Assembly: GCA_012839805.1 (NCBI GenBank)
Contig: DUMU01000007.1
Span: 78,374-142,373 of the forward strand
Reading direction: 5' to 3'
DNA length: 64,000 nucleotides
Source of the DNA: Bacillota bacterium
GTDB taxonomy: Bacteria; Bacillota; Limnochordia; Limnochordales; DUMU01
Part shown: piece by piece, positions 5,139 to 17,186 of the stretch
Numbering within the stretch: the first letter of the stretch is position 1
Layout of the letters: each line of letters begins with the position of its first letter
Made by a program: the position numbers and the translations under genes
The notes under the pieces: generated by a model
Told to the model about the DNA's origin: nothing
Databases searched by the model: none
What the model saw: only the letters and a program-made list of their open reading frames with translations

Positions 5139-5150
5139 ATCCGTAGCAGG

Positions 5151-5960
5151 TCACAGCTTGAGTTTGGGCCGGGTGGCCTCCCGGAAAGCTTCGGCCAGGA
5201 ACTCTTGACCCCAGTTGATGATGGCGTCGACCTTGCCCGTAGCCGGGTTAACCACCACGACCAGGCCCGGGTAGGCCTCCCACTGCCAGTGCTCGACCGT
5301 GATCGTCTTGTCCTTGTCGGCCTGGTACAGGCGGCCATGTACCCTCGTCTCTGCCGGACCCACCAGCTTCACGGGTTGTACGACGTCCGGTTCGCCCAAA
5401 GAGGCTATGACGTCGCTCTTGGAGGCGCCGATGCCGAAGGCGAGCGGCATAACCTGGTAGAGGTAATTCACCTCCGAAACGCTGCTTTTGACCGTCACCT
5501 GCACCCAGCCGGGCTTGAGGAAGAGGATTTCTCCCGCGGGCGAAACGGTGGCCACCTGCGGGTCGGAGGTGGAAAACTGGAGCAGCTCCTGGCCTGACGG
5601 CCAGGGGATCACGTTGTTGCCCGGCAAAGGACCGGAACCCGTCTCGGTGAGGATGTACCCGCGCACGCCGGCATCCGCAGCCGGTGAAGTGAGGCTTATC
5701 CGGCCGGCACTCGTCGTTGGCGGCAGGTAGACAAGCCAGAAACCAAAGTCGAGCTCAAGATAGCTCCCGTTAGCCACCACCAGGTATAGGGGTGAACCGT
5801 AAGCCGCCAGCGCGTCAGGGTCGACCCCGGCAGCCAGAGCGGCATCTGGGGCCAGGGCGCAGACAACGGCGGAAGCAAAGAAGAGCACAAACAGGCCGGC
5901 AAGCTTGGGGTGGCCCACCGGCGCGATCCGGTAAACCGGCTTGGGCGGCAGGGAGGTCAT
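5151..5960 (-). CDS. hypothetical exported protein
   Basis: 269-aa ORF with an N-terminal hydrophobic signal or anchor (LAGLFVLFFASAVVCALAPDAALAAG). Starts 28 nt after the rnfC stop. No family recognised with confidence; a possible Ig-like segment is VATVSPAGEILFLKPGWVQVTVKS. Confidence 0.55.
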   Translation of the reverse strand: MTSLPPKPVYRIAPVGHPKLAGLFVLFFASAVVCALAPDAALAAGVDPDALAAYGSPLYLVVANGSYLELDFGFWLVYLPPTTSAGRISLTSPAADAGVRGYILTETGSGPLPGNNVIPWPSGQELLQFSTSDPQVATVSPAGEILFLKPGWVQVTVKSSVSEVNYLYQVMPLAFGIGASKSDVIASLGEPDVVQPVKLVGPAETRVHGRLYQADKDKTITVEHWQWEAYPGLVVVVNPATGKVDAIINWGQEFLAEAFREATRPKLKL

Positions 5961-5987
5961 GACTCCGGCGCCTCCTTTCGCCCAGTA

Positions 5988-7493
5988 TTACGCCGCGCCC
6001 TGGGGAATCACCTCCTGCTCCTGGTTCACCGGTTCCGAAGTACCGCGATCCGGCAGGGCGCGTGGTTGCGCGCCAGGTATGCCATTGGACACGGCGCCTA
6101 ACTGGCCGGTGGGCGGGGTGCCGGGTAGGGTGGTTCGCACAGCGGGGCGCGGGTGCTCGCGCCACGCTGCCTTCCCCATACGCAAATACTGAACCAGCGG
6201 CCGGCGGCTCGGGCAACTGTAGGCGCAAGAGCCGCATTCTACGCAGTCCGCCAGCCCCCAGGTGACGGCCTGGTCCAGCCGGCCGGCGGCCACCAGGCGG
6301 GCAAGCTGGAACGGAGCGAGACCTTGCGGGCAGGCGTCGAGGCAGCGCCCGCAACGCAAGCAGGGACCGGCCTCGTCCACGGGCGACGCCCGGGCTGTGA
6401 AGGCCAGTACCCCGCCGCAACCCTTGAGCACGGGGACGTCGAGGTCGGCCACGGCGGTGCCCATCATCGGGCCGCCCAGGATGACCTGTCGCAAAGCGCT
6501 CTCGTCCACCCCGGCTGCCTTGAGCAGTTCCCGAACCGGGAGCCCGATGGGCACCCAGTAGTTGGCGGGCTCGGCGACCGCGTCGCCGTCGACGGTTACG
6601 ATGCGCTGGAGGAGAGGTTCGCCCGTAAGGAGAGCCCGGCCCAGGGCCGAGGCTGTGGCTACGTTATGGACGACGACTCCTACGTCGGCAGGTAGACCCC
6701 GGCGGGGAACGACCCGGCCCGTGATGGTGCGGACCAGGGTGCGTTCAGCGCCCTGGGGGTAAAGGCTGGGAAGGACCCGAACCTCGAACCCGGGCAAACC
6801 TCGTACCATCTGCCGGAGCAGGGCGATGGCATCCGGCTTGTTGTCTTCGATCGCGATCACAACCCGGGAAACGCCAAGAGCCCGCTTCATCGCCCTTGCT
6901 CCCCAGAGCAGGGTGGGGGTTTCTTCGACCATCAAGCGGTGATCGCAGGTGAGATAGGGTTCACACTCGCAACCGTTGAGGATCAGGAAGTCGGGGCGGG
7001 GATCATCCCGGGGAGTCAGCTTGACGTAGCTTGGAAAAAGGCCTCCGCCCATGCCCACGAGCCCGGCTTCTCGAGCCAGCCGGCGGATTCCTTCGGGATT
7101 CATCTCTTCCGGCGAGCCGCCATCGCCGAGAAAGGAGCGGTCAAGGGGAAGGAAGGAGTCTCGACCGTCGTTTTCTATCACTACGGCGGGTATCCACAGG
7201 CCGGAAGGATGTAGACGCGGCTCAACGGCGACCACCCTGCCGCAGATGGGCGCGTGGACGGGGGCGCCAAGGCCGCGCGCTTCCCCGATCTTCTGACCCC
7301 GGATGACCCGGTCACCCTTTTGTACCAGCGGCGAGCACGGCTCCCCGGCGTGTTGCCACAGGGAGACGATCAAGCGCTCGGGCGGTGGCAATCTCTTCAC
7401 TGCTTTCCCGGCGGTGGCTGCCTTCTGCTGGGGAAGCTTCAACCCTGAATGGTGGGGGTTCGTTATTCGTTCCACGAAAGCGGCTGCAAACAC
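5988..7493 (-). CDS. rnfC: electron transport complex subunit RnfC (canonical copy)
   Basis: GTG start. RnfC_N-like QHAGEPCSPLVQKGDRVIRGQKIG...PVHAPICGRVV. NADH/FMN signatures GMGGGLFPS and NGCECEPYLTCDH. Two ferredoxin motifs, CLRCGRCLDACP and CVECGSCAYSCP. Confidence 0.9.
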   Translation of the reverse strand: MFAAAFVERITNPHHSGLKLPQQKAATAGKAVKRLPPPERLIVSLWQHAGEPCSPLVQKGDRVIRGQKIGEARGLGAPVHAPICGRVVAVEPRLHPSGLWIPAVVIENDGRDSFLPLDRSFLGDGGSPEEMNPEGIRRLAREAGLVGMGGGLFPSYVKLTPRDDPRPDFLILNGCECEPYLTCDHRLMVEETPTLLWGARAMKRALGVSRVVIAIEDNKPDAIALLRQMVRGLPGFEVRVLPSLYPQGAERTLVRTITGRVVPRRGLPADVGVVVHNVATASALGRALLTGEPLLQRIVTVDGDAVAEPANYWVPIGLPVRELLKAAGVDESALRQVILGGPMMGTAVADLDVPVLKGCGGVLAFTARASPVDEAGPCLRCGRCLDACPQGLAPFQLARLVAAGRLDQAVTWGLADCVECGSCAYSCPSRRPLVQYLRMGKAAWREHPRPAVRTTLPGTPPTGQLGAVSNGIPGAQPRALPDRGTSEPVNQEQEVIPQGAA

Positions 7494-7502
7494 GGGCGCA
7501 CC

Positions 7503-7537
7503 CTCCTCCGGAGGAGACCGAGATAGTGCGCACTATC
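7503..7537 (-). promoter_or_regulatory. two perfect palindromes in the rnfC leader: CTCCTCCGGAGGAG (covers the SD) and GATAGTGCGCACTATC
   Basis: Read directly: 7503-7516 is a 14-nt perfect palindrome containing GGAGGAG 9 nt upstream of the GTG start. 7522-7537 is a 16-nt perfect palindrome. Confidence 0.45.
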
Positions 7538-7742
7538 ACTAAGGCGGGGAAATAAACACGCGCTCGTGCGCACCACTTGACTCCTTTGCCTCCTGAGCTT
7601 ACCACGCAAGCGGTTCAGCTGCAAGAGATTAGTGGCGAAATTCACGAACTGGTTTCACCAGCTCCAGCCACCGGCCCTGGACCGGCAGCCGCCTCCCGTT
7701 AGCGACCTATAGCTAAAAATACCGGCGGCCGGCTGCGGGGCT

Positions 7743-8813
7743 TCAGCGTGCTACCGCGTCGTAGGGGGCGGCGTTGCTGCCGCGCACGGTTATGACGGTA
7801 CGGTTGGGGACACAGACGATGGACTGGGAGGCATTGGTGATCCAGCCCGTGCGCACGCAGACCTTGTCCGGGCAATCGGACTCGCGCACCCGTATCCGCC
7901 CGGGCTCGACCTCCAGGATCATGCGGCCGCGGGGTGTGTTGAGGGTTAGGAACCGGTTCGTGCGCAAAGGCACGATCATTCGTAACTCACCGGCGACCCG
8001 GACCACTGCCTCGGGGTTGGCAGGAGGCGCGGCAAGACTTCCATGCCACAGCAGGATCAGGAGTGCTGCGAAGGCCAGGACACTGGCTATAGCGCCATCT
8101 CCCACCCGTAGAGAAAGACGGTTACGCCGGGAGAAGAGCGCTTGTGAACGTTCCGCCAGCCCGAGCAGTCGCACGGTCAGCCGGGAAACCTTGGGGGGCG
8201 AGACGTTTCCCCGCGAGGGGGCGGTCTCGGCCGGGAGAGCGCCGGGGTCAGCCACGAGTACCGGCAGGAGATAGGCGGCGATCACGCCTATCAGGGCTCC
8301 GGTAGGCAGGGAAAACCAGAGTAAGTACGGAAGGTAGGCCAAGATGGCCCAGCCGCCGGTGAGGAGGCGGGCGACGAGGAGTTGGGCCACATTGTGGGTG
8401 GCCGCTCCCGCGATGCTCACTCCCGTGGGCGAAAGACGGCCGCGGGCGACGCGAGAGGTGACGGACATAGCTCCGACGCTGGCGATGCCGCCGCCAAGCC
8501 CGAAGAGGAAGGGGGCCGAGAGGAAAGTACCCGTGGCCAGCGACCCGAGGACCTGGCGGGCAACCACGAGCAGCAAAGCCTCCCGCCACCCCCAGATGAG
8601 CACTGCGAGCAAGGAGGCCAGGTTGGCCAGGCCGATCTTGGCGCCGGGCACGGGCAGTGCCGGGAGCAGGCTCTCGAAAACGTAGAGGGTGACGGCGATG
8701 GCGAGGAGAACGCCCAGGTAGGCTGCCTTGCGGGTGCTATTCCCCAGGCCTTTCGTGGCCACGGCCACCGGCGATGCGGTTCCGGTGACGGGCAGGGCAC
8801 GAACCTCGTTCAT
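7743..8813 (-). CDS. fusion protein: Gx transporter (Hpre_diP_synt_I, PF07456-like) N-terminal membrane domain plus NusG domain II (PF07009-like) C-terminal domain
   Basis: N-terminal half is polytopic (LGVLLAIAVTLYVFESLLP...GAKIGLANLASLLAV...ATHNVAQLLVARLL). C-terminal half has a TM helix followed by VVRVAGELRMIVPL...ILEVEPGRIRVRESDCPDKVCVRTGWI...IVCVPNRTVITV. ATG at 8813 overlaps the apbE stop (ATGA). GTG at 8822 is an alternative. Confidence 0.75.
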   Translation of the reverse strand: MNEVRALPVTGTASPVAVATKGLGNSTRKAAYLGVLLAIAVTLYVFESLLPALPVPGAKIGLANLASLLAVLIWGWREALLLVVARQVLGSLATGTFLSAPFLFGLGGGIASVGAMSVTSRVARGRLSPTGVSIAGAATHNVAQLLVARLLTGGWAILAYLPYLLWFSLPTGALIGVIAAYLLPVLVADPGALPAETAPSRGNVSPPKVSRLTVRLLGLAERSQALFSRRNRLSLRVGDGAIASVLAFAALLILLWHGSLAAPPANPEAVVRVAGELRMIVPLRTNRFLTLNTPRGRMILEVEPGRIRVRESDCPDKVCVRTGWITNASQSIVCVPNRTVITVRGSNAAPYDAVAR

Positions 8814-10057
8814 GGGGCCCACCGCCCCCGCCCGGCCAGCTCCACCTTACCCTTCAAGCCGCTCGTGACCTTGACCGAAAAGTCGGGGAGCACGAAGATT
8901 CCTTCCACACCGGGCAAAGACTCGAGTAGCTCCAAACCCTTGACCGGCCCTAACACGAAGGCGGCGGTAGAGAGCGCATCGCCAAGCCCCCCGTCAGGGG
9001 TGATAACCGTCACGCTCAGGACCTGCCCGGCCGGCCACCCGGTGTGAGGATCGAGCAGGTGACTGTAGCGGGTGCCGTCATACTCGAAATACCGCTCGTA
9101 ATCCCCGGAGGTGGCGAGCGCCTCGTCGGCCACCGGGACTATGGCGATCACGCTGCTCGGGTCACGGGGATCCTGTACCCCGGCCCGCCAGGGCTCGCCA
9201 CTATTCTTCTTGCCGAGGGCATAGATGTTTCCGCCGAGGTCTAACAGGGCGCTGGTGACCCCGTGCCGGCGTAAGACTTCGGCGGCCTTGGCTACGGCAT
9301 AACCTTTGGCAATACCGCCCAGGTCCAGGGCCTGGCCCGGCCGCCGGAGCCTCACCTTCCGGCCGGCCTCGTCGATCTCTACGTCCGAGAACGAAACCAG
9401 GGACAGGAGTTTGGCGATGGCATCTTGGGAGGGCGGGCGATGGCCCCGCAGGTGGGTCGGGCCCATGCCCTCGAGGGGCGACTCCGGCGTGCTCGCCTCC
9501 GTGGGAGCAGTCTCCTCGGTCTCGACGAAGCCCCAGAGATCGACCAGGGGCGCGATGGTGGGATCGAACGCGCCGTGGCTCGCCTCATGGACGCGCCGGG
9601 CGGTCAACAGCATGGAGACGAGATCGGGGGATACCCGGATCCACGTCCCGTCGCCCGCGTGCCGGTTGATCTCCGCCACCTGGGTGTCGTCCCGGAACCG
9701 GTCGACTTGCGCGGCCAGCCGGTCGAGTTCGGCCAAGGCGGCCTGCACGGCCTTTTCCGCCTGGGTCCGGGTTGCCGCCGTCGCCCGGATCTGGGCGTAC
9801 GTTCCCATCGTAAAGGAGACTGCCTGGGCCTCTGCCGCCTGGGTCTGGTCGGCAGGGACGGCCGACGGTCCGGCTTGATTCGTGGTCACCGCGCCGGCGG
9901 CGTGCTGGCCCTCGCGACCCTGGCAGCCGGCCACGCCCAGGGCAACGGCGAGGAGCAACAGGCCGGTGAGGGCGGCGCCGGGCCCTCCCCGGCGAGGGCC
10001 GAACGAGATCCCGGCGGAACTGGTCACAAATCCCGGGCGAACCGTTGCTATCACCAC
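8810..10057 (-). CDS. apbE: FAD:protein FMN transferase ApbE, probable lipoprotein
   Basis: 415-aa ORF with lipobox LGVAGC. ApbE-like blocks FTMGTYAQIRA, FDPTIAPLVDLWGF, LDLGGIAKGYAV, LLDLGGNIYALG, ATSGDYERYF, HLLDPHTG. GTG start 22 nt after rnfB; exact start uncertain. Confidence 0.85.
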   Translation of the reverse strand: MVIATVRPGFVTSSAGISFGPRRGGPGAALTGLLLLAVALGVAGCQGREGQHAAGAVTTNQAGPSAVPADQTQAAEAQAVSFTMGTYAQIRATAATRTQAEKAVQAALAELDRLAAQVDRFRDDTQVAEINRHAGDGTWIRVSPDLVSMLLTARRVHEASHGAFDPTIAPLVDLWGFVETEETAPTEASTPESPLEGMGPTHLRGHRPPSQDAIAKLLSLVSFSDVEIDEAGRKVRLRRPGQALDLGGIAKGYAVAKAAEVLRRHGVTSALLDLGGNIYALGKKNSGEPWRAGVQDPRDPSSVIAIVPVADEALATSGDYERYFEYDGTRYSHLLDPHTGWPAGQVLSVTVITPDGGLGDALSTAAFVLGPVKGLELLESLPGVEGIFVLPDFSVKVTSGLKGKVELAGRGRWAP

Positions 10058-10078
10058 CGTCTACGACAACCCAAGAAT

Positions 10079-10939
10079 CTAAGAAGCCGCCTGACCGGCC
10101 CCGGCCGGGAGCGCTTCCCCGGCCTCCTCCTCTCTCCGGCACTCAATGACATGAGTGGGACACTTGGCCGAACACTGGCCGCAAGCGATGCAAAGCTCCG
10201 GCGTGATCGTGGCGAGGTTGCCCAGGACGTGGATGGCATCGTGTTCACAAAGGCGTTCGCAGATGTTGCAGGCGATGCAGCCCGCCTGGCAGACCTGGCG
10301 CACCAGCTTCCCGGGGAGGGGTGACAAGCAGTTGACGAAGGTGCGGCGGCCGGCATCTACCAGCTGGATGACGCCCCGCGGGCAGACCTGGGTGCAGATG
10401 CCACAGCCGGTGCACTTTCTTTCGTCCACCACGGGCAATCCTTCGGGACCCATGGTAAGGGCATCGAAGGGGCAGGCTTCTACGCAGGTGCCAAAGCCGA
10501 GACATCCGTAGGTACAGGCCTTACCTCCCCCGCTCACGAGTTCGGCCGCCCGGCAGTCGGGGAGCCCCCGGTACTCGCCGGTACGTTTGGCGAGGGCTTG
10601 CGTGCCGGCGCAGAAAACGTGGGCCACCTGGCGAGTCACGCCGGCCGGGGCGGCAACGCCCAGGACTTCGGCCACCCGGGCAGCCACGCCCGGGCCACCG
10701 GCCCGGCAGCCATCGGCCGGGGCTTTGCCCTCCACGGCCGCCTTGGCAAAGCCGGAGCAGCCGCTGAAACCACAAGCGCCACAGTTGGCGCCGGGAAGGA
10801 GGTTCGCCAGCAGTTCAACCCGGGGATCTTCCTGAACGGTGAACCGCCGGGAAGCCCACACGAGCAGTACTGCGAAAGCGACGGCCAGCAATCCCATGGA
10901 GAGGGAGGCGGCCAGGATCGAGCTCAGCATGCTTTCCAC
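10079..10939 (-). CDS. rnfB: electron transport complex subunit RnfB
   Basis: N-terminal TM helix, CGACGFSGCSGFA cluster motif, then several CxxCxxCxxxCP ferredoxin repeats. Confidence 0.9.
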   Translation of the reverse strand: MESMLSSILAASLSMGLLAVAFAVLLVWASRRFTVQEDPRVELLANLLPGANCGACGFSGCSGFAKAAVEGKAPADGCRAGGPGVAARVAEVLGVAAPAGVTRQVAHVFCAGTQALAKRTGEYRGLPDCRAAELVSGGGKACTYGCLGFGTCVEACPFDALTMGPEGLPVVDERKCTGCGICTQVCPRGVIQLVDAGRRTFVNCLSPLPGKLVRQVCQAGCIACNICERLCEHDAIHVLGNLATITPELCIACGQCSAKCPTHVIECRREEEAGEALPAGAGQAAS

Positions 10940-11008
10940 CTCATCTCATCACGACACCTTACCTGACGAGCTTTGGGTCGGTAGCCCTTTTGCGTCCCTG
11001 CACGAACC

Positions 11009-11599
11009 TCAAGATGCCGGCACGAGCCCGCTGAACCCCATGAAGGTCAGGCTCATAATGGCGGCGATCAGAAGCGAAAGAGCCGGCCCTTGCAAGCTCA
11101 AGGGCACGTCGGCGAACTCCAGCTCTTCGCGCAAGCCGGCCATCAGCACAATGGCGAGAGTCCAGCCCACCGCGCTACCGACCGAGAACACCAGGGTCTC
11201 GAGCAGCCCGTAATCGCTCCCCGCCACCAGCAAGGCCACCCCGAGGATGGCGCAGTTGGTGGTGATGAGCGGCAGGTAGATTCCGAAAGCCTCGTAGAGC
11301 GAGGGACTGTAACGGCGGATCACCATTTCGAGGAATTGCACCAGCGTGGCGATGACCAGGATGAAGACGACGTACTGAAGGAACGGCAGGTGGAAGGGTA
11401 CGAGGATGTACCGCTGGATCGCCCAACTGACCGCACCGGATATGGTCATGACGAAGGTTACCGCCGCTCCCATTCCCAGGGCGGTCTCGAGGCGCTTGCT
11501 CACGCCGAGGAAGGCACAGATGCCCAGGAACCGGCTGAGGATGAAGTTATTGATCAGGGCCGAACCCACGAAGAGCAGAACCAGTGAACTGAAGCTCAT
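11009..11599 (-). CDS. rnfA: electron transport complex subunit RnfA
   Basis: 196-aa polytopic protein: MSFSSLVLLFVGSALINNFILSRFLGICAFLGVS...ITTNCAILG. Confidence 0.9.
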   Translation of the reverse strand: MSFSSLVLLFVGSALINNFILSRFLGICAFLGVSKRLETALGMGAAVTFVMTISGAVSWAIQRYILVPFHLPFLQYVVFILVIATLVQFLEMVIRRYSPSLYEAFGIYLPLITTNCAILGVALLVAGSDYGLLETLVFSVGSAVGWTLAIVLMAGLREELEFADVPLSLQGPALSLLIAAIMSLTFMGFSGLVPAS

Positions 11600-11615
11600 G
11601 ATGCCCCCTGCCCCC

Positions 11616-12359
11616 TTAGTTACTCAAACTGAGCCCCGCCGTTGAGGCCCCGGCTCCCGTGCCCGTCGTCGCAGCGGTTACGCCGGCCCCGGAGCCACGG
11701 GCGCGTTCGAGGCGACGGGCGGCCCGTTCTTTCGCAAGGCGCGACCCGAGGTTGAAGAGCCCGACGATCGCGCCCATGGTCAGGAAGGCGCCCGGCGGCT
11801 GCAGCATCACCCGCCAGGTGACGAAGCCGGGCGGCATTACCGGATGCCCCAGGAGCGAACCACTGCCTAGCAGCTCACGGACGATCCCGATCATGACCAG
11901 TGAGATGGTATAGCCGATGCCATACCCGAACCCATCGGCCAATGCCCGGTCGACGGGGACGTGGGAAGCCCACGCCTCGGCCCGCCCCAGGATGATGCAG
12001 TTGACTACGATGAGCGGAACGAAAAGCCCGAGGACCTTGTGCACCTGGGGCACGGTGGCGGCGAGTACCAGGTCGGCGATGGTGACGAAGGTGGCAATGA
12101 TGATGGTGTAGACCGGGATGCGGACTTCTCGCGGGACGATCTTGCGGATGGCGGAGACCATCACGTTGGTACCGACCAGCACGAAGATGACCGCCGCGCC
12201 CATGGCGAGGCCGTTCACTACCGCGGTGGTGACGGCCAGGGCAGGGCAGAAAGCGATCATCAGCCGGAAGGGCGAACTCTCCGTCCACACGCCTCGGAGG
12301 AAGTCCGTCCCCAGCGTCCGTAGCTTGCTCGGCTCACGACCGGTGCTCACAGCGCTCAT
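11616..12359 (-). CDS. rnfE: electron transport complex subunit RnfE
   Basis: NPFRLMIAFCPALAVTT... and VVNCIILGRAEA motifs. Has a ~40-aa Ala/Gly/Thr-rich C-terminal tail. Confidence 0.9.
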   Translation of the reverse strand: MSAVSTGREPSKLRTLGTDFLRGVWTESSPFRLMIAFCPALAVTTAVVNGLAMGAAVIFVLVGTNVMVSAIRKIVPREVRIPVYTIIIATFVTIADLVLAATVPQVHKVLGLFVPLIVVNCIILGRAEAWASHVPVDRALADGFGYGIGYTISLVMIGIVRELLGSGSLLGHPVMPPGFVTWRVMLQPPGAFLTMGAIVGLFNLGSRLAKERAARRLERARGSGAGVTAATTGTGAGASTAGLSLSN

Positions 12360-12483
12360 GCGTCAGTCGACACTCCTCTCAAACTCACCCGCTCGGCCCG
12401 GCCGGCGACGACCGCCATCGCCGACGGCCGGGCCGGGCTTACTCACCGGTTGACTCCGCGCGCACGCTCGCGTGCCCGCCCGG

Positions 12484-13581
12484 TCACTCTATCAAGCCGG
12501 ACGCGCGAGCCGCTGCGATCCCGTAGCGAACGGCTTCGGCCACCGCCTGAGAGGAGACGGTAGCCCCGCTGATCGTGTCGAGGTCCTCACCAACCTCCAG
12601 GCGGGCGTCGATGCTCTTCCCGGCGAACTGGCGCTGGAAAGCGGCATCAGTGGCGATCTTGTCTCCCACGTCCGGGGTTTCGCTCTGGTGGTAGACCCGG
12701 ACGTTGATCAGCGTCTTGTCGGCCGGATCGATCACCCCGAGCACCTCCACCGGCCCTTCCATCCCGGCGGCCGCGGCCCGGAAACCGATCGCTCCGGTCT
12801 CTCCGGTGGAAGAAATGCCCTGGAAGATCTCGGGGTCGGTCTTGGCTCCTTCCGCGGGGAAAGTGCCGATGGAGACGAACATGACCACGTCCACCCCCGC
12901 ATCGGGCGGTACCACGGCGAGCAGGGCTTCCGCCGGGTCGCCGGCCAGCTCGGGCAGGGCGTTAGTAGAACCCTCGCTCGTGGTGCTACCGCCCCCGGTG
13001 GCTGCCGGCACCGCTGCTGCCATCACCACGGGCTGGCCCATCCGTTGCATGGCGGCTTGGATACCCGTCCGGACGATATCGACCGCGGCCCGTGACGATA
13101 TGGTGGCGCCGGTGATGCCGTCGATGTCCTGGTTCAGCTGATAGGCATCGGTGAGGGACTTACCGGCAAACTGGTCGGTGAAGGACGGCTCTTGAATGCG
13201 AGAGCCGAGCCCCGGCGTCTCCGAAAGCTGGAGAACGCGGATCCCCACCAGCGACTTGCGGTCGGCACTCAGCCCGATCGCCATCTTGATCGGCCCGCCG
13301 AACCCGTCGCCGCTCGCCTTGAAGGCGTACCCGAGCACGCTTCCGTCCGCGGCGAGTACTCTGTAGACGGCATCGTCGGCCTCGGCCGAGCTGGGCGGTA
13401 CCTCTTCTTCGAAGCTGGCCGCCTCCGGGAACAGCCCCTTGAAGCCCAGCTCGAGGTCGGCTTTCTGCCGGTTGGCTTCGATGATGGGGTTGAGCCAGGT
13501 GTAAAAGCCGGCCAGAGTCCCGCCGGATAGGATGGAAACCAGAGCCAATACCAGGATCATGCGCCAGGTGGAACTACGCAC
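12484..13581 (-). CDS. rnfG: electron transport complex subunit RnfG with two tandem FMN-binding domains
   Basis: N-terminal anchor MILVLALVSILSGG. Two FMN_bind-like modules end in DIDGITGATISSRAAV and DLDTISGATVSSQAVA. 365 aa, against ~200 aa for a usual RnfG. Confidence 0.88.
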   Translation of the reverse strand: MRSSTWRMILVLALVSILSGGTLAGFYTWLNPIIEANRQKADLELGFKGLFPEAASFEEEVPPSSAEADDAVYRVLAADGSVLGYAFKASGDGFGGPIKMAIGLSADRKSLVGIRVLQLSETPGLGSRIQEPSFTDQFAGKSLTDAYQLNQDIDGITGATISSRAAVDIVRTGIQAAMQRMGQPVVMAAAVPAATGGGSTTSEGSTNALPELAGDPAEALLAVVPPDAGVDVVMFVSIGTFPAEGAKTDPEIFQGISSTGETGAIGFRAAAAGMEGPVEVLGVIDPADKTLINVRVYHQSETPDVGDKIATDAAFQRQFAGKSIDARLEVGEDLDTISGATVSSQAVAEAVRYGIAAARASGLIE

Positions 13582-14560
13582 GAACAGAAACCTCCTTTGG
13601 ACGCGGCAGCGTGAGGCGGTTGATCAGCGGTGTGCACATGTTGAAGAAAAGGATGGCAAAGGAGACGCCCTCCGGATAACTGCCCCAGAGCCGGATGACC
13701 ATGGTCATCACGCCGATGCCCAGGGCATATATCCACCGGCCCCATTTGGTAAGCGGGCTCGTCACCCAGTCGGTGGCCATGAAGAACGCTCCCAGCACCA
13801 ATCCACCGGAAAGAACGTGAAGTAGCGGATCTTGCCCGCCGGCCCAGGCGAAAAGGGCCGCCGAGCCCAGCACCCCCGCCGGGATTCGCCAGTCGATGAC
13901 CTGAAAAGCTATGAGTATGAGACCACCGAGCAAGAGAGCCGCTATAGCAGTCTCACCCAGTGAACCGCCATGATAGCCCGCGAGCAGTTCAAGGTAGGAG
14001 GGAACGCCTGCCCCCTTGGCCATCGCGGCCAGGGGGGTAGCGCCGGTTACCGCGTCCACCCCGCGTATCGGGCCGCCGAAATCCGTGAGGATCTGGGGAA
14101 AGGTGACCAGCAGGAAAACCCTCCCGACCAGCGCCGGGTTGAACAGGTTATGACCCAGGCCGCCGAACGCGTGCTTTCCCAGCAGGATGGCGATGGACGC
14201 TCCGATCACCACCGTCCAGAGGGGAACGGAGGGCGGCAGGGTGAGCGCGAGCAAAAGTCCCGTCACGGCCGCACTTCCATCGAGGAGATACCGCCCGGGC
14301 GAACGGCGCCGGGCCCAAACCGCCAGGGCCTCGACCGCCAGTGCGGTCAGGACCGATGCCCCGACCACCCGGAGCACCCGGAGTCCGAAGATGTAGGCCG
14401 CCACTCCCACTACGGGCAAGAGCGTGGCAAGCACCAAGTACATGGCCCGCTGGGCGGTAAGCGGTGAATGGAGGTGGGGAGAGCTAGAGAGAAGCAGAAG
14501 GCGTGTTCCAACGCCTCCGGTCTCCCGTCGCGGCTCAAGCGTTGGCGAAACCGTGTTCAT
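13574..14560 (-). CDS. rnfD: electron transport complex subunit RnfD
   Basis: 328-aa polytopic protein with the flavinylation motif VDAVTGATPL. ATGA overlap with the upstream gene and an 8-nt overlap with rnfG. Confidence 0.9.
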   Translation of the reverse strand: MNTVSPTLEPRRETGGVGTRLLLLSSSPHLHSPLTAQRAMYLVLATLLPVVGVAAYIFGLRVLRVVGASVLTALAVEALAVWARRRSPGRYLLDGSAAVTGLLLALTLPPSVPLWTVVIGASIAILLGKHAFGGLGHNLFNPALVGRVFLLVTFPQILTDFGGPIRGVDAVTGATPLAAMAKGAGVPSYLELLAGYHGGSLGETAIAALLLGGLILIAFQVIDWRIPAGVLGSAALFAWAGGQDPLLHVLSGGLVLGAFFMATDWVTSPLTKWGRWIYALGIGVMTMVIRLWGSYPEGVSFAILFFNMCTPLINRLTLPRPKEVSVRA

Positions 14561-15972
14561 CGGTTACCTAACCTCACTTCTGCGTGACAGCTGGCTACTG
14601 CTACCTGTTGCTCCCGTGGCCGTTTACCGGTCGGGGACGCCTTCCCGTTGGAGGATGAGGCGATGCCGGTTTGACGGCCGTTCTCTTCGGAAGCTTTCTC
14701 CGGCTTACGGCGGGAGAGCTCATGCTGGGCGAGCCTGATCAGCTGAACCAGGGGGAGCCGCGCCGGGCATGCATAGGCGCACAGGCCGCAGGCATAACAC
14801 TTTTCCGCTCCCTGCCGGGCCGCCTCCTCCCAGCGATGGAGACGGGCGAGGCGGCCGAGGACCGCGGGAGCAAGTCCCTCGGGACATATGGCAACGCACC
14901 GGCCACAATGGAGGCAGACGCCCACGCCTGGGGAGGCTTCCAGAAAGGCGTCACCCAGCGCGAGATACCCCAGATCGCCCAGGCTGATGTAAGCATCTTC
15001 CAGGGGGAGAGCTTCACCCGCCAGGTAGCCGCCCCGAACCAGGAGACGAAGACGTGCGTAATCGACCCCCGCGGCTTCGAGGAGGGCGCTAACCGGAGCC
15101 CCGATGGGCACCCGGTAAGTACCGGGCCGGGCGACCGCGTCCCCCCCTATGGAGACGAGGACATCGACGGGAGGCAGAAACGTCTGCAAGCTCCTGCCCA
15201 CGGCCGCCGCGATCTCGACGCCGACAATGGCCGCATTGCTGAACCGGGCGGCCAGCATCTCCGGACGCCCCGCCGGGTAACCGGCCGGAACTAGCAGCAC
15301 TTCGGCGGGGAGGAGGTCGCGCCGTAAAGCGGCAAGTTCAGTGGCGGAAAGGGTCCCTTCAGCTATCGCCAGCCAGCCCTGGCGGTTGCCTGGCGCTCCC
15401 GGGCCGGATAGGATGGCGGTTACTCCGGCGGCGACGTCGGCCCTCCGTTCGTGAAGCAGGGCCCGGCGACCGAAGACTCCCTCGTCGGGGTCGCACCCGT
15501 TGAAAACGATAATGCCCGCGGTGGTGAGGGGCTCAGGGTCTACGCCGGCAAGGCGGCAGGCGTGGCGGAGGCGATCCCCGACGGGGGTTGTGCCTGCCCG
15601 GCGGTTGGTGCCTTGCTTCTCTGCCCCGGCTTCCGCCACCGGCTGGATGGCAACGAACGGAACCAACCCGGACCCACCCGTGTCCGGGGCCGGCCGGAAG
15701 CCGGCGTCCACCACTTTGCCGGCCACCGGGCTGAAAAGGCAACCGTCTTCAGGTGCATCCTGCGGGCCGGCCAGTACTGTACCGGGCCTCACGAGATCAC
15801 CCTTTTTCACTACCGGCACGAGAGCCCGCCCGGTAAGGTCTTGCCCGCGAAAGACCAGAATTGAAGGGGAGGTCAGGACCTGGCTGGGTTGCCAGCCTCC
15901 CTCCCCTCGGGTAAACAGGGACCGCCCCGGTACACGTAGGAGCCGGCCCCGTCCCCGCCTGCGCCACGGCAT
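14557..15972 (-). CDS. RnfC-like subunit lacking the NADH/FMN-binding signatures
   Basis: Has VVKKGDLVRPGTVLAG...FSPVAGKVV, CLHCGRCVAICP and CYACGLCAYACP. The glycine-rich and ECEPY positions read RLAGVDPEPL...FNGCDPDEGVFG. ATG at 15972 is preceded by gggaggg with an 8-nt spacer. The ORF extends to 16059. Confidence 0.8.
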   Translation of the reverse strand: MPWRRRGRGRLLRVPGRSLFTRGEGGWQPSQVLTSPSILVFRGQDLTGRALVPVVKKGDLVRPGTVLAGPQDAPEDGCLFSPVAGKVVDAGFRPAPDTGGSGLVPFVAIQPVAEAGAEKQGTNRRAGTTPVGDRLRHACRLAGVDPEPLTTAGIIVFNGCDPDEGVFGRRALLHERRADVAAGVTAILSGPGAPGNRQGWLAIAEGTLSATELAALRRDLLPAEVLLVPAGYPAGRPEMLAARFSNAAIVGVEIAAAVGRSLQTFLPPVDVLVSIGGDAVARPGTYRVPIGAPVSALLEAAGVDYARLRLLVRGGYLAGEALPLEDAYISLGDLGYLALGDAFLEASPGVGVCLHCGRCVAICPEGLAPAVLGRLARLHRWEEAARQGAEKCYACGLCAYACPARLPLVQLIRLAQHELSRRKPEKASEENGRQTGIASSSNGKASPTGKRPREQQVAVASCHAEVRLGNR

Positions 15973-16068
15973 GATCCAATCCCTCCCGTCGACAATGCAA
16001 TGCATGCCCCAGCGGTGATTTGGGGGCAGGTGCGGACGGCCCCGCCTGCCCCCAAGCAAGCGAACGGT

Positions 16069-16803
16069 TCAGCGCTCGGCGGCCTTCAGGGCGTTGGCTA
16101 CCGCTTCCTTGTATTTGTTGCCGCTGTTGGTCGCGCCGGTAACCACGTCCACTTGCTCGATCTCAGCCACCGAGCTCTTGCCGACGAAACGCTTTTGCAT
16201 TTCGTCCCGGGCGGTGACGGCGACTTTGTACGAGTAGTTCTTCCAATCCTTGAACTTACCGTCGGTGACCTCGTCCAGCCGCACCGCCTTGATCTTGTCG
16301 TTTTCCACCGTCACCCAGGCCACGGCGTAGCCATGGCTGTCCGCCTTGCTCTTGCCAAAGAAAGTACCTTCGAAGTACTTGGCTTTGGATTCAGGAGTCA
16401 CGCGCGCCTTGGCCAGCGCCCGCTCTACCGCCTGAATCCATTTGCGGCTGCTGCTGGTCGCCTTGGCGTAGACATCGACCTGGGGGCCGTTGTTGGCCAC
16501 GAAATCTTTTTCGAGCTTCTCCTTGGCCTCTTTGGCTGCCGGCCAAGGATACTTATCGTAGTCCTTGGGTTCCCCGAACTGGGTTATTTCGCTCAGGGTG
16601 ACGCGTACGATCTTGTCATCCTTGATGACTAGTACGGCCATGCCATAGCCATGGTCGTCTGCGTCTGAGATACCGGTGGTAACCCCATCCTTGTAGATCT
16701 TCCCGGCCGTCCGGCCCGTGAGCGGCAGTGCTACTGCAGTTGCTACCGCGAGGATCCCGACGAGTAAGACGACGCGGCTCCAACCTTTGAGAACGCGATC
16801 CAT
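16069..16803 (-). CDS. extracytoplasmic protein with two FMN-binding (FMN_bind, PF04205-like) domains
   Basis: ATG at 16803 after aggaggg (8-nt spacer). Signal or anchor WSRVVLLVGILAVATAVAL. Two repeats start YKDGVTTG.../FEGTFFGK... and end VDVYAKATSSS and VDVVTGATNSG. Confidence 0.8.
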   Translation of the reverse strand: MDRVLKGWSRVVLLVGILAVATAVALPLTGRTAGKIYKDGVTTGISDADDHGYGMAVLVIKDDKIVRVTLSEITQFGEPKDYDKYPWPAAKEAKEKLEKDFVANNGPQVDVYAKATSSSRKWIQAVERALAKARVTPESKAKYFEGTFFGKSKADSHGYAVAWVTVENDKIKAVRLDEVTDGKFKDWKNYSYKVAVTARDEMQKRFVGKSSVAEIEQVDVVTGATNSGNKYKEAVANALKAAER

Positions 16804-16955
16804 TTCGCAAGCCCTCCTGACTGGTTGAGATTGCGGGTTCACCACGGTAGCCCGGATCACCGGGCTTTCCCAACATTAGTACCTACGTGTTGTCCGTCCC
16901 GAATCCTCCCCCCTTGCTCAACTGGGCCGGCCGCGGGAGCCGGCGGAGCCGAAGG

Positions 16956-16973
16956 TTGTGCCTTTCTTCACAA
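16956..16973. promoter_or_regulatory. Rex-like operator (TTGTGcc-N4-TTCACAA)
   Basis: TTGTGCCTTTCTTCACAA read directly. Matches the 18-bp Rex consensus TTGTGAA-N4-TTCACAA except for two positions. Lies in the divergent region between the rnf cluster and the protease gene. Confidence 0.45.
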
Positions 16974-17186
16974 TGTTGGTCAAACGAAAATGGCCACCCG
17001 GCCAGCCTCATTCCTCGGTTGCCTTGTTCTCCCCGGCTGAACTTTACGCCTCCGGCGCGGGATTGTCAACCGGCCTCTACCGCCCCCTTCGTTTTCGCCT
17101 GCGGCTCAATTACATTAGCAGGAGTTTCCTGGTGAGGATCGAAGAATACTAGGTAGCACTATTTACCGACCGGTGGGAAAGGAGAT

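What the first reader, a model, noticed from the sequence alone, without database searches (positions are those of the whole stretch)
5988..16973. Rnf operon expanded into an 11-kb flavin-rich cluster: candidate Rnf-coupled extracytoplasmic electron-transfer system
Gene order on the minus strand:
- two-domain FMN-binding exported protein
- RnfC-like protein without NADH/FMN motifs
- RnfD
- RnfG with two FMN-binding domains
- RnfE, RnfA, RnfB
- ApbE lipoprotein
- Gx-transporter/NusG-II fusion
- canonical RnfC

Coupling is tight. There are ATGA overlaps at 14557-14560 and 8810-8813 and an 8-nt rnfD/rnfG overlap. Only two gaps exceed 25 nt (12360-12483 and 7494-7742).

The flavinylation-type motifs ([ST]GAT[ST]-like) read: RnfD TGATP, RnfG TGATIS and SGATVS, extra protein TGATNS plus a degenerate AKATSS. 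That gives four or five potential covalent-FMN sites, against two in a textbook Rnf.

My inference is that a chain of covalently bound flavins on the outer face of the membrane, loaded by the co-encoded ApbE, links Rnf to an extracytoplasmic donor or acceptor. The logic resembles flavin-based extracellular electron transfer (PplA/FmnB type), but here it is wired into Rnf. I do not know this exact architecture as a described system.
Basis: partly seen in the sequence, partly recalled or inferred. Interest (0 to 1): 0.8.

Follow-up and report, generated by a model that had tools for sequence, protein, structure and literature searches.

The report
Rnf operon with extra periplasmic flavins
This is a real Rnf respiratory operon with its flavin-loading genes, in a rare variant from biogas-reactor Limnochordia-like bacteria that adds three outward-facing flavin domains and a second RnfC subunit without an NADH site, so it may pass electrons to a periplasmic partner as well as to NAD+.

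Summary
Ten co-oriented minus-strand genes (5988-16803) encode a two-domain FMN-binding exported protein ("FMNb2"), an RnfC paralogue without the NADH/FMN loops ("RnfC'"), RnfD, a two-domain RnfG, RnfE, RnfA, RnfB, an ApbE lipoprotein, a PF07456+NusG_II fusion and a canonical RnfC. All five flavinylation motifs are present.

Minor errors:
- There are more than two gaps over 25 nt.
- "AKAT" is a conserved motif variant, not a degenerate one.

- RNF clusters with multi-flavinylated RnfG were proposed to feed extracytosolic acceptors (Meheust 2021).
- PF07456/NusG_II are EetB/EetA of the FAD exporter, which sits next to Rnf in 572 Clostridia genomes (Rivera-Lugo 2023).

What I could not find described is the strict pairing of FMNb2 with RnfC', together with a separately promoted canonical rnfC that carries the same operator-like box.
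- RnfC' is very rare: 3 clusters among 1.84 billion representatives.
- It keeps all eight Fe-S cysteines and the RnfC fold, and it is under purifying selection.
- It is not a recent copy of the neighbouring rnfC.

Limnochordia have two membranes, so the flavin chain is periplasmic, not extracellular. No acceptor is encoded. Verdict: new variant of a known kind, moderate interest.

The parts
17041..17069 (-). Promoter-like site TTGACA-17-TAAAGT upstream of the cluster
   Evidence: It is the only sigma-70-like site found in 4800-17400. The TTGACA and a TATAGT/TAAAGT box are conserved in L001, L004 and L011. Function is inferred.
16991..17004 (-). Short G+C hairpin followed by a T-run in the 5' leader
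   Evidence: Found. The sequence GCCGGGGTGGCCATTTTGGTTTG is conserved in L001, L004 and L011. Its role is unknown; attenuator-like is a guess.
16956..16973 (.). Operator-like inverted repeat TTGTGAAGAAAGGCACAA in the leader
   Evidence: The pattern has 6 hits in the window against 0.47 expected. TTGTGA...GCACAA is invariant in 5 loci. It resembles Rex or CRP/FNR boxes; this comparison is from my own knowledge and the regulator was not identified.
16069..16803 (-). FMNb2: exported protein with two FMN_bind domains. Sites are T116 (DVYAKAT) and T225 (DVVTGAT).
   Evidence: - Pfam PF04205 gives 51 bits in 2 stretches.
- Similarity to PplA is weak: 41 bits against a cut-off of 325.
- The ATG has an AGGAGGG Shine-Dalgarno sequence.
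- There is one N-terminal hydrophobic segment and no lipobox Cys.
- It is 57-68% identical in L001, L004, L011 and L013 and always sits directly upstream of RnfC'.
14557..15972 (-). RnfC': an RnfC paralogue that keeps 2x[4Fe-4S] but lacks the NADH/FMN loops
   Evidence: - No PF01512 hit.
- The G-rich loop GxGGxxFP...KL is deleted and CECEPY is replaced by CDPDxG, while all 8 Cys are invariant.
- The AF2 model has pLDDT 83 and matches solved RnfC chains at TM 0.70-0.75.
- dN/dS is 0.16-0.26.
- Only 3 clusters were found among 1.84 billion representatives.
13574..14560 (-). RnfD with flavinylation site T175 (DAVTGAT)
   Evidence: PF03116 gives 355 bits. TIGR01946 gives 298 bits, above its cut-off of 207. 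Motif found. ATGA overlap with RnfC'.
12484..13581 (-). RnfG with a duplicated FMN domain. Sites are T160 and T341.
   Evidence: - TIGR01947 gives 161 bits, above its cut-off of 102.
- Domain 2 is 35% identical to domain 1.
- The AF2 model has pLDDT 92.9. It shows one N-terminal helix, two globular domains and a disordered linker at 195-206.
- The best PDB match is RnfG chain 7ZC6_G.
- Both motifs are conserved in orthologues.
12360..12483 (-). rnfG-rnfE spacer with a strong G+C hairpin and no U-tract
   Evidence: The 136-nt stretch 12355-12490 that spans this spacer folds at -73 kcal/mol, z = -3.5. G+C palindromes of different sequence sit at the same place in L004 and L011. Role unknown.
11616..12359 (-). 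RnfE
   Evidence: PF02508 gives 188 bits. NF009070 gives 223 bits, above its cut-off of 184. Both Cys align with Cys of 7ZC6_E.
11009..11599 (-). RnfA
   Evidence: TIGR01943 gives 256 bits, above its cut-off of 229. Both Cys align with Cys of 7ZC6_A.
10079..10930 (-). RnfB, long clostridial/methanogen type with several [4Fe-4S] motifs and an N-terminal TM helix
   Evidence: PF04060 and Fer4 hits. TIGR01944 gives 116 bits, above its cut-off of 69. The start ATG at 10930 has a GAGGTGG Shine-Dalgarno sequence.
8810..10057 (-). ApbE flavin transferase, lipoprotein
   Evidence: PF02424 gives 294 bits. The lipobox LGVAGC follows one hydrophobic segment.
7743..8813 (-). EetB-EetA fusion. EetB is an ECF-S-like FAD-export subunit. 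It is followed by a TM helix and an outward NusG_II domain.
   Evidence: PF07456 gives 135 bits and PF07009 gives 87 bits. The names come from Data Set S1 of PMC9973259. The same fusion follows apbE in L001, L004, L014 and L015.
7494..7742 (-). 249-nt spacer holding a terminator-like hairpin (7721-7733), a conserved promoter-like CTTGCAG...GGTAAGCT and two operator-like boxes (7630-7647, 7524-7541)
   Evidence: A spacer of about 200 nt with the same conserved blocks is present in L001 and L004. The inference is that canonical rnfC is a separate but co-regulated transcription unit.
5988..7493 (-). Canonical RnfC with NADH/FMN domain and 2x[4Fe-4S]
   Evidence: TIGR01945 gives 495 bits, above its cut-off of 246. 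Complex1_51K gives 158 bits and RnfC_N 102 bits. GMGGGLFP and CECEPYL are intact. It is 67-68% identical in L001 and L004 at the same position.
5151..5960 (-). orf269: exported protein of unknown function, 27 nt downstream of rnfC. Whether it belongs to the system is uncertain.
   Evidence: No Pfam hit. It has an N-terminal signal-like segment. It is about 60% identical and syntenic in L001 and L004, but the downstream synteny continues into unrelated genes. No flavinylation or haem motif.

Best explanation
This is an ion-translocating Rnf complex (RnfC/D/G/E/A/B) encoded together with its flavin-maturation kit. The kit is an ApbE lipoprotein, which attaches FMN to Thr, and an EetB-EetA fusion, which supplies FAD to the outer face of the membrane.

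Shown here:
- The core has everything needed for the normal ferredoxin-to-NAD+ path. RnfB carries its Fe-S motifs. The four Cys of the RnfA/E [2Fe-2S] site are present. RnfG and RnfD have their flavinylation sites. The canonical RnfC is intact.

Inferred:
1. In this lineage the periplasmic end of the path has been lengthened. RnfG carries a second, tethered FMN domain. The first gene of the operon encodes a small exported protein with two more FMN domains.
2. I read these three extra covalent flavins as a side branch. It would take electrons from, or give them to, the mobile RnfG flavin and pass them to a periplasmic partner that is not encoded here. This would be a flavin counterpart of the cytochrome MmcA encoded as the first gene of the Methanosarcina rnf operon.
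3. RnfC' sits in the operon's C position and is translationally coupled to rnfD. It keeps the RnfC fold and both [4Fe-4S] clusters but has lost the FMN/NADH loops. I infer that it occupies the RnfD docking site and closes the NAD+ exit, half-way towards the cofactor-less NqrA. Ferredoxin electrons would then leave through the flavin branch.
4. The canonical RnfC is transcribed from its own promoter under the same operator-like box. It would give the NAD+-linked form.
For: Parts and maturation module:
- All parts are identified by HMMs above curated cut-offs.
- The RnfA/E Cys are conserved against 7ZC6.
- ApbE and EetB/EetA are a known maturation module next to Rnf.

Extra flavin domains:
- There are five D-x-x-[STA]-[GK]-A-T sites. 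The two in RnfG are conserved in its orthologues and both FMNb2 sites keep the Ala-Thr.
- Each of RnfG and FMNb2 has a single N-terminal hydrophobic segment.
- The AF2 model of RnfG (pLDDT 92.9) shows the second hydrophobic stretch is part of globular domain 2, so all extra domains face outward.

Conservation of the layout:
- The whole 11-gene order is conserved in L001 and L004.
- The FMNb2-RnfC'-RnfD-RnfG head is also present in L011, L012 and L013, and the FMNb2-RnfC' pair in L017 and L018.
- FMNb2 is upstream of RnfC' in every locus that has enough upstream sequence.
- Sister-type clusters L014 and L015 (rnfCDG-multiFMN-EAB-apbE-eetBA) have neither FMNb2 nor a second rnfC.

RnfC':
- The loops are deleted and the 8 Cys are invariant.
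- It has the RnfC fold at TM 0.70-0.75, against 0.57-0.66 normalised by query length for full-length NqrA chains.
- dN/dS is 0.16-0.26 and the gene is intact in 5 lineages.

Precedents and regulation:
- NqrA is a cofactor-less RnfC homologue.
- mmcA is the first gene of the methanogen rnf operon.
- Meheust 2021 made a published hypothesis for multi-flavinylated RnfG.
- Conserved promoter-like and operator-like blocks stand before both units.
Against: - There is no experimental datum for any member.
- No acceptor or donor is encoded nearby.
- More distant FMNb2 homologues are orphan genes away from rnf. The adjacency could be lineage history among fairly close relatives, whose downstream synteny extends into unrelated genes.
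- The G-to-K change in the AKAT site has not been tested. G-to-A halves flavinylation in one model substrate.
- RnfC' evolves about twice as fast as canonical RnfC, which also fits a relaxed structural role.
- Whether RnfC' and RnfC compete for RnfD was not modelled.
- Cultured Limnochordia did not use Fe-NTA.
- The promoter, terminator and operator are consensus matches only.
Confidence: 0.5

Rival explanations
1. This is an ordinary ferredoxin:NAD+ Rnf with lineage-specific decoration. The second RnfG domain and FMNb2 do not form an exit path; they could be a redox buffer, assembly aids or unrelated ApbE substrates placed nearby. RnfC' would be a slowly decaying or purely structural paralogue. 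Only canonical RnfC matters for catalysis.
For: - The complete canonical subunit set is present.
- ApbE and EetB/EetA are generic Rnf neighbours.
- FMNb2 homologues elsewhere are unlinked to rnf.
- RnfC' is the fastest-evolving gene of the cluster.
- No acceptor is encoded.
Against: - RnfC' keeps all 8 Fe-S Cys and an intact reading frame in 5 lineages, with dN/dS of about 0.2.
- It holds the translationally coupled C position.
- FMNb2 and RnfC' co-occur without exception.
- Both flavinylation Thr of the added domains are conserved.
Confidence: 0.2
2. RnfC' is the only resident C subunit, so the complex never touches NAD+. The neighbouring canonical RnfC would work in a different enzyme, as RnfC2 does in the Acetobacterium methylene-THF reductase.
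For: - RnfC paralogues outside Rnf are documented (the window's canonical RnfC also gives a sub-threshold match to the PrdC model, 169 bits against a cut-off of 490).
- Canonical rnfC has its own promoter-like region after a terminator-like hairpin.
- In the NJ tree RnfC' is not sister to it (0 of 100 bootstraps).
- L014 and L015 have only a divergent RnfC in the operon.
Against: - Canonical rnfC is kept at the same place in all three long loci and shares the operator-like box with the main operon.
- No partner enzyme gene is adjacent. The next genes are an unknown exported protein, a cyclase and an M20 peptidase.
Confidence: 0.12
3. The flavin chain works inwards. A periplasmic donor reduces FMNb2 and RnfG, and the ion gradient drives electrons uphill to ferredoxin. 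This would be reverse Rnf as in nitrogen fixers, but fed from outside the cell.
For: Rnf is reversible. The anatomy is symmetric with respect to direction. Some Limnochordia oxidise H2, CO and formate.
Against: No periplasmic dehydrogenase or hydrogenase is encoded nearby. Nothing in the sequence sets the direction.
Confidence: 0.08

Closest known systems
Canonical Rnf complex (Acetobacterium woodii 9ERI, Clostridium tetanomorphum 7ZC6, Azotobacter vinelandii 8AHX)
   Same: All six subunits are present with their cofactor motifs. RnfA and RnfE match the 7ZC6 chains with E-values of 6e-63 and 1.4e-52 and keep all four Cys. Gene order is C-D-G-E-A-B.
   Different: RnfG has a second FMN domain. 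The C position holds a paralogue without the FMN/NADH site. The canonical RnfC is moved to the end behind its own promoter-like region. An extra two-FMN exported protein is the first gene.
RNF clusters with multi-flavinylated RnfG (Meheust et al. 2021, eLife, PMC8238504)
   Same: RnfG has more than one FMN_bind domain inside an RNF cluster. The published hypothesis is the same: a second path to extracytosolic acceptors.
   Different: That paper does not mention RnfC in its main text (0 occurrences). I found no description of the degenerate plus canonical RnfC pair or of the upstream two-FMN protein. Limnochordia did not appear in the parts of the supplements that are held.
Listeria flavin-based extracellular electron transfer locus (PplA, FmnB, EetA, EetB, FmnA, Ndh2, DmkA/B)
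   Same: Both have an exported two-FMN-domain protein, an ApbE-type transferase and EetB/EetA for FAD supply.
   Different: - The electron source here is Rnf, not Ndh2 with demethylmenaquinone.
- There are no ndh2, dmk or fmnA genes in the cluster.
- FMNb2 scores 41 bits against a cut-off of 325 on the PplA model and has no lipobox.
- The host is diderm, so the chain ends in the periplasm.
Methanosarcina acetivorans MmcA-Rnf, and the cytochrome-c-preceded rnf operon seen in L002
   Same: An extracytoplasmic multi-cofactor redox protein is encoded as the first gene of the rnf operon. It is thought to draw electrons from Rnf to a non-NAD acceptor.
   Different: The cofactors here are covalent flavins, not haems; there is no CxxCH motif. 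The M. acetivorans RnfC is reported to keep its cofactor sites.
NqrA of Na+-NQR
   Same: It is an RnfC homologue that has lost catalytic cofactors yet stays bound to the D/B-type membrane subunit. The RnfC' model also matches NqrA at TM 0.57-0.66, normalised by query or target length.
   Different: RnfC' keeps both [4Fe-4S] motifs and is closer to RnfC (TM 0.70-0.75). NQR has no second, intact C-type subunit.
Two-subunit Nqr/Rnf-like complexes (Meheust 2021; Huang 2024, PMC11334425)
   Same: They are proposed to move electrons one way from the cytosol to an outward flavinylated subunit.
   Different: Those have only an NqrB/RnfD-NAD-binding fusion and an NqrC/RnfG-like subunit. Here the full six-subunit machine is present.

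Membership tests
Rnf complex (RnfABCDGE) | All six subunit families present and co-oriented | tested here: met
   NCBIfam scores against cut-offs: RnfC 495/246, RnfD 298/207, RnfG 161/102, RnfA 256/229, RnfB 116/69 and RnfE (NF009070) 223/184. All are on the minus strand, 5988-14560.
Rnf complex (RnfABCDGE) | Covalent-FMN threonines in RnfD and RnfG, and four Cys for the RnfA/E [2Fe-2S] cluster | tested here: met
   Motifs DAVTGAT (RnfD) and DGITGAT (RnfG). The Cys align with Cys of 7ZC6_A and 7ZC6_E. Actual cofactor loading cannot be tested here.
Rnf complex (RnfABCDGE) | Ferredoxin:NAD+ oxidoreductase activity coupled to ion translocation | not testable with these tools
   Needs membranes or purified enzyme.
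RnfC (TIGR01945), applied to the paralogue at 14557-15972 | Nuo51-type FMN/NADH domain with the G-rich loop and ECEP motif, and a score above the family cut-off | tested here: not met
   Score is 127 bits against a cut-off of 246, with no PF01512 hit. The loop is deleted and the motif replaced. The fold and the 2x[4Fe-4S] are retained.
Multi-flavinylated RnfG class (Meheust 2021) | RnfG with more than one FMN_bind domain inside an RNF gene cluster, predicted extracytosolic | tested here: met
   Two PF04205 stretches. Two intact motifs. One N-terminal TM helix and two globular domains in the AF2 model.
PplA (NF041941, Listeria extracellular electron transfer flavoprotein) | Score above the model cut-off; lipoprotein signal | tested here: not met
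   Score is 41 bits against a cut-off of 325. There is no Cys after the hydrophobic segment, whereas orphan homologues have a lipobox Cys. Only the two-FMN-domain architecture is shared.
Listeria-type flavin-based EET locus | Ndh2, DmkA/DmkB and FmnA together with PplA, FmnB and EetA/B | tested here: not met
   None of the cluster or flanking products matches these families. The rest of the genome was not searched.
ApbE flavin transferase | ApbE domain and extracytoplasmic location | tested here: met
   PF02424 gives 294 bits over the full profile. Lipobox VAGC follows a hydrophobic segment. Activity was not tested.
EetB/EetA FAD-export module | PF07456 (EetB) and PF07009 (EetA) domains next to apbE | tested here: met
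   Scores are 135 and 87 bits. The family-to-name mapping comes from PMC9973259 Data Set S1. ECF-T and ECF-A partners are not in the cluster and were not searched genome-wide.

The most novel reading that the evidence does not exclude
The Rnf membrane core has two exchangeable cytoplasmic heads. With canonical RnfC it is the usual ferredoxin:NAD+ pump. With RnfC' (Fe-S only, blind to NAD) it becomes a ferredoxin-driven pump that discharges into a periplasmic chain of three extra covalent flavins. This would be an all-flavin analogue of the MmcA-Rnf of methanogens. Both forms would be controlled by one redox-sensing (Rex-like) operator. RnfC' would also be a living intermediate on the road from RnfC to the cofactor-less NqrA.
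Probability: 0.2. Interest if true: 0.7.

Novelty: new variant of a known kind. Interest (0 to 1): 0.45.

Why it matters
Rnf is a central energy-coupling enzyme of anaerobes, and how it connects to partners other than NAD+ is known only for the cytochrome-bearing methanogen enzyme.

This cluster offers a compact, all-flavin test case for the published but untested idea that multi-flavinylated RnfG opens a second electron exit.

It also supplies a natural RnfC that has lost only the NADH/FMN site. That is useful for asking what RnfC and NqrA contribute structurally, and how NQR evolved from Rnf.

The organisms are common in thermophilic biogas reactors and composts, where electron disposal routes shape the process.

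If the extra parts turn out to be inert, the finding is simply a well-annotated Rnf operon.

Tried and rejected
- **Riboswitch or other known RNA in the leader or spacers.** There were no Rfam matches at E <= 1 in 4000-18000.
- **A second TM helix in RnfG at residues 220-238.** This would put domain 2 in the cytoplasm. I rejected it because the segment contains two Asp and the AF2 model (pLDDT 92.9) shows a helix and a strand of the globular domain.
- **A Tat signal in the Arg-rich N-terminus of RnfC'.** No hydrophobic region follows, and the AF2 model shows residues 1-24 disordered.
- **Haem-based partners.** There is no CxxCH motif in any product.
- **RnfC' as a recent duplicate of the adjacent rnfC.** I rejected this: 0 of 100 NJ bootstraps support it. 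A split of RnfC' plus the divergent RnfCs of L014, L015 and L002 from all canonical RnfCs has 99 of 100, with a long-branch caveat.
- **"Degenerate RnfC always goes with multi-FMN RnfG".** Not general. L020 has a two-domain RnfG with a fully canonical RnfC.
- **FMNb2 as a general Rnf partner.** Homologues at 40-52% identity (Fermentithermobacillus-like, Halothermothrix, Alkaliphilus) are orphan lipoprotein genes.
- **A Rex or CRP gene in the window.** Two other operator-pattern hits (2616, 37886) lie inside ORFs and are probably chance.
- **Limnochordia entries in the supplements of the two Light-lab papers.** None were found in the truncated files that are held.

Full report

Yes. On the minus strand between 5988 and 16803 there are ten co-oriented genes. 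Profile searches identify them with scores far above chance.

| Coordinates | Product | Key evidence |
|---|---|---|
| 16069-16803 | Exported protein with two FMN_bind stretches ("FMNb2") | PF04205, 51 bits |
| 14557-15972 | RnfC-like protein ("RnfC'") | SLBB and two [4Fe-4S] motifs; no Complex1_51K match; TIGR01945 127 bits vs cut-off 246 |
| 13574-14560 | RnfD | 355 bits |
| 12484-13581 | RnfG with two FMN_bind stretches | 365 aa |
| 11616-12359 | RnfE | PF02508, 188 bits |
| 11009-11599 | RnfA | TIGR01943, 256 bits |
| 10079-10930 | RnfB | long, multi-cluster type |
| 8810-10057 | ApbE | 294 bits; lipobox VAGC |
| 7743-8813 | PF07456 + NusG_II fusion | 135 and 87 bits |
| 5988-7493 | Canonical RnfC | TIGR01945 495 bits; Complex1_51K 158 bits |

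The two ATGA overlaps and the 8-nt rnfD/rnfG overlap are as stated. The five motifs are DAVTGAT (RnfD), DGITGAT and DTISGAT (RnfG), and DVVTGAT and DVYAKAT (FMNb2).

Three details need correction.
- The rnfA-rnfB gap is 69-78 nt. With the Shine-Dalgarno-supported ATG, the gap before RnfC' is 96 nt. So "only two gaps exceed 25 nt" is wrong.
- Coordinate 16973 is in the 5' leader, not in a gene.
- AKAT is a conserved variant, not a degenerate motif (see section 4).

**2. Which parts are ordinary?**

The core is a complete, apparently functional Rnf.
- Window RnfA and RnfE match the C. tetanomorphum chains with E-values of 6e-63 and 1.4e-52, and all four cysteines of the intramembrane [2Fe-2S] site are in place.
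- The ApbE gene and the "Gx transporter/NusG-II" gene are the known flavin-maturation module.
- Rivera-Lugo et al. 2023 showed that PF07456 is EetB, an FAD-binding ECF-S-like subunit required for FAD export to ApbE. Their Data Set S1 labels NusG_II as EetA.
- They found eetB next to Rnf in 572 Clostridia genomes and EetA-EetB fusions in 14 genomes.
- The same rnfCDGEAB-apbE-eetBA layout, with a multi-domain RnfG, occurs in other Bacillota contigs (L014, L015).
- Multi-domain RnfG is itself common among the homologues retrieved. Meheust et al. 2021 described it and proposed [quoted passage not shown].

Two of its supporting items, ApbE and the fusion protein, do not bear on electron export.

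**3. Which parts are unusual?**

Two features set this cluster apart, and they travel together.

(a) RnfC'.
- Aligned with solved RnfC chains it is collinear from end to end. The glycine-rich loop (GLGGATFPTHVKL in A. woodii) is removed by a deletion of about 11 residues, and NG(A/C)ECEPYLT is replaced by NGCDPDxGV. All eight Fe-S cysteines are invariant.
- Its AlphaFold model (pLDDT 83, pTM 0.82) matches RnfC of three solved complexes at TM 0.70-0.75 and NqrA at 0.57-0.66.
- It is intact in five lineages. dN/dS is 0.16-0.26 and dN is about twice that of the canonical RnfC. It is therefore a fast-evolving but functional protein.
- It is very rare. An exhaustive HMM search of 1.84 billion representative proteins gives three clusters (828, 676 and 333 bits) before scores fall to 203 bits and below.
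- A scan of 185,579 species genomes gives two loci. A scan of 241 million metagenome records gives three short contigs.

(b) FMNb2.
- It lies directly upstream of RnfC' in every locus with enough sequence: the window, L001/L005, L004, L011/L012, L013, L017, L018 and L021.
- L014 and L015, which lack RnfC' proper, have no FMNb2 within 10 kb and no second rnfC.

In the three long loci a canonical rnfC follows the eetBA gene after a spacer of about 200-250 nt.

A neighbour-joining tree never places RnfC' as sister of that canonical copy (0 of 100 bootstraps). It groups RnfC' with the divergent RnfCs of L014, L015 and L002 against all canonical RnfCs (99 of 100). Long-branch attraction cannot be excluded.

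PF01512 scores form a gradient:

| RnfC type | PF01512 bits |
|---|---|
| Canonical | 158-168 |
| L014 | 73 |
| L001 RnfC' (P0004) | 34 |
| L015 | 30 |
| L011 RnfC' | 21 |
| Window, L013 and L002 | no hit |

**4. Where are the extra flavins?**

- FMNb2 and RnfG each have one N-terminal hydrophobic segment.
- A second hydrophobic stretch in RnfG (220-238) is, in a confident model (pLDDT 92.9), part of the second globular domain. That domain follows a disordered Ala/Gly/Ser/Thr linker at 195-206. Both RnfG domains are therefore outside.
- Domain 2 is an internal duplication, 35% identical to domain 1. The model's best structural matches are RnfG and NqrC.
- In the wider FMNb2 family the Ala-Thr of both sites is invariant.
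- The Rnf-linked subgroup has AKAT in domain 1, and in L001 and L011 in both domains. Orphan homologues mostly have [ST]GAT, with SKAT in one Halothermothrix domain, and most of them carry a lipobox cysteine that the Rnf-linked subgroup has lost.
- The published motif is D-x-x-[S/T]-G-A-[S/T]. G-to-A halves flavinylation in one substrate, and G-to-K is untested.
- The nearest named relatives are Limnochordales. Limnochordia have an outer membrane, and two cultured species did not use Fe-NTA. The chain is therefore periplasmic rather than extracellular.
- The organism occurs in biogas-fermenter metagenomes.

**5. Transcription signals (consensus-level evidence only)**

- A TTGACA-17-TAAAGT site at 17069-17041, a hairpin with a T-run, and an inverted repeat TTGTGAAGAAAGGCACAA (16956-16973) precede the first gene. 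All three are conserved in orthologous leaders.
- The 249-nt spacer before canonical rnfC starts with a terminator-like hairpin. It contains a conserved promoter-like block and two copies of the same box.
- The box pattern has 6 hits in the window against 0.47 expected.
- I infer two transcription units under one regulator. The box resembles Rex and CRP/FNR operators; this comparison is from my own knowledge. No such regulator gene is in the window, and no Rfam family matches.

**6. Mechanism**

Established knowledge, from the review PMC12174285: electrons run ferredoxin -> RnfB -> [2Fe-2S] of RnfA/E -> FMN of RnfG (outside, mobile) -> FMN and riboflavin of RnfD -> [4Fe-4S] of RnfC -> FMN -> NAD+. 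NqrA is an RnfC homologue without cofactors.

Inference for this cluster:
- The tethered second RnfG flavin and the two FMNb2 flavins form a branch at the RnfG step, leading to or from a periplasmic partner.
- RnfC' occupies the RnfD site and closes the NAD+ exit while keeping two clusters. Canonical RnfC gives the NAD+-linked form.
- The analogy is mmcA, the first gene of the methanogen rnf operon, and the cytochrome-c-first rnf locus L002, whose RnfC also lacks the Nuo51 domain.
- None of this is demonstrated. The partner is unknown and direction is not set by sequence.

Rival readings are given separately: inert decoration; RnfC' as the sole C subunit with canonical RnfC serving another enzyme, as RnfC2 does; and inward electron flow.

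**7. Verdict**

What remains is a rare, coherent variant, FMNb2 plus RnfC' plus a separately promoted canonical RnfC, that I could not find described. It is a new variant of a known kind, of moderate interest.

Noticed in passing
window 16956-16973, 7630-7647, 7524-7541: A conserved inverted repeat TTGTGA-N6/7-(G/T)CAC(A/T)A stands in the leader of the operon and twice before canonical rnfC. It has 6 hits against 0.47 expected and is conserved in four other loci. It looks like a Rex or CRP/FNR-type operator. No regulator gene was found in the window.
   Followed up: partly
window 16991-17004: A small G+C hairpin followed by a T-run lies about 40 nt downstream of the promoter-like site and about 190 nt before the first start codon. 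It is conserved in L001, L004 and L011. It could be an attenuator, but no Rfam family matches.
   Followed up: partly
window 12360-12483: The rnfG-rnfE spacer holds a very stable G+C hairpin (-73 kcal/mol for the 136-nt stretch 12355-12490, z = -3.5) without a U-tract. Orthologous spacers in L004 and L011 hold different G+C palindromes. It may be an intra-operon RNA processing or stability element.
   Followed up: partly
L002 8981-15991 (JGI 3300009431) and L003: This is another Rnf variant. A multihaem cytochrome c gene is followed by a 384-aa RnfC without the Nuo51 domain, RnfDGEA and an RnfB fused to a GltD-like pyridine-nucleotide oxidoreductase. NuoF-like and formate-dehydrogenase-like genes are next to it.
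   Followed up: no
L004 (JBLNBY010000318.1): The contig is filed under a Bacteroidota MAG but carries a Limnochordia-type cluster. It is 98-99% identical in protein to Logan contigs L011 and L012 and 60-90% identical to the window. This is probably a binning error.
   Followed up: partly
L014 7937-15256 and L015 5922-14014: Related Bacillota clusters (rnfCDG-multiFMN-EAB-apbE-eetBA) have a single RnfC. It also lacks the GxGGxxFP and CECEPY motifs (PF01512 at 73 and 30 bits, matching only from profile position 23 onward). Rnf enzymes that do not use NAD may therefore exist without any canonical RnfC nearby.
   Followed up: partly
window 17187-22259 (+): A divergently transcribed 1690-aa S8 subtilase carries PKD, BACON-like, FlgD-Ig and Por_Secre_tail-like domains. 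It is not syntenic in L001, where an H+-pyrophosphatase sits upstream instead.
   Followed up: no
window 5151-5960 (-): An exported 269-aa protein without any Pfam match lies 27 nt downstream of rnfC. It is conserved at about 60% identity at the same position in L001 and L004. It has no redox motif, and whether it belongs to the system is open.
   Followed up: partly
Alignment A3 (P0054, P0057, P0059, P0061, P0063, P0070, P0075): Orphan homologues of FMNb2 in other Firmicutes carry a lipobox cysteine, like PplA. The Rnf-linked subgroup has lost it and has an AxA-like site ([AG]-[VI]-A before [LMI]-P) instead. This suggests a change from a lipid-anchored to a soluble or TM-anchored periplasmic protein.
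   Followed up: no
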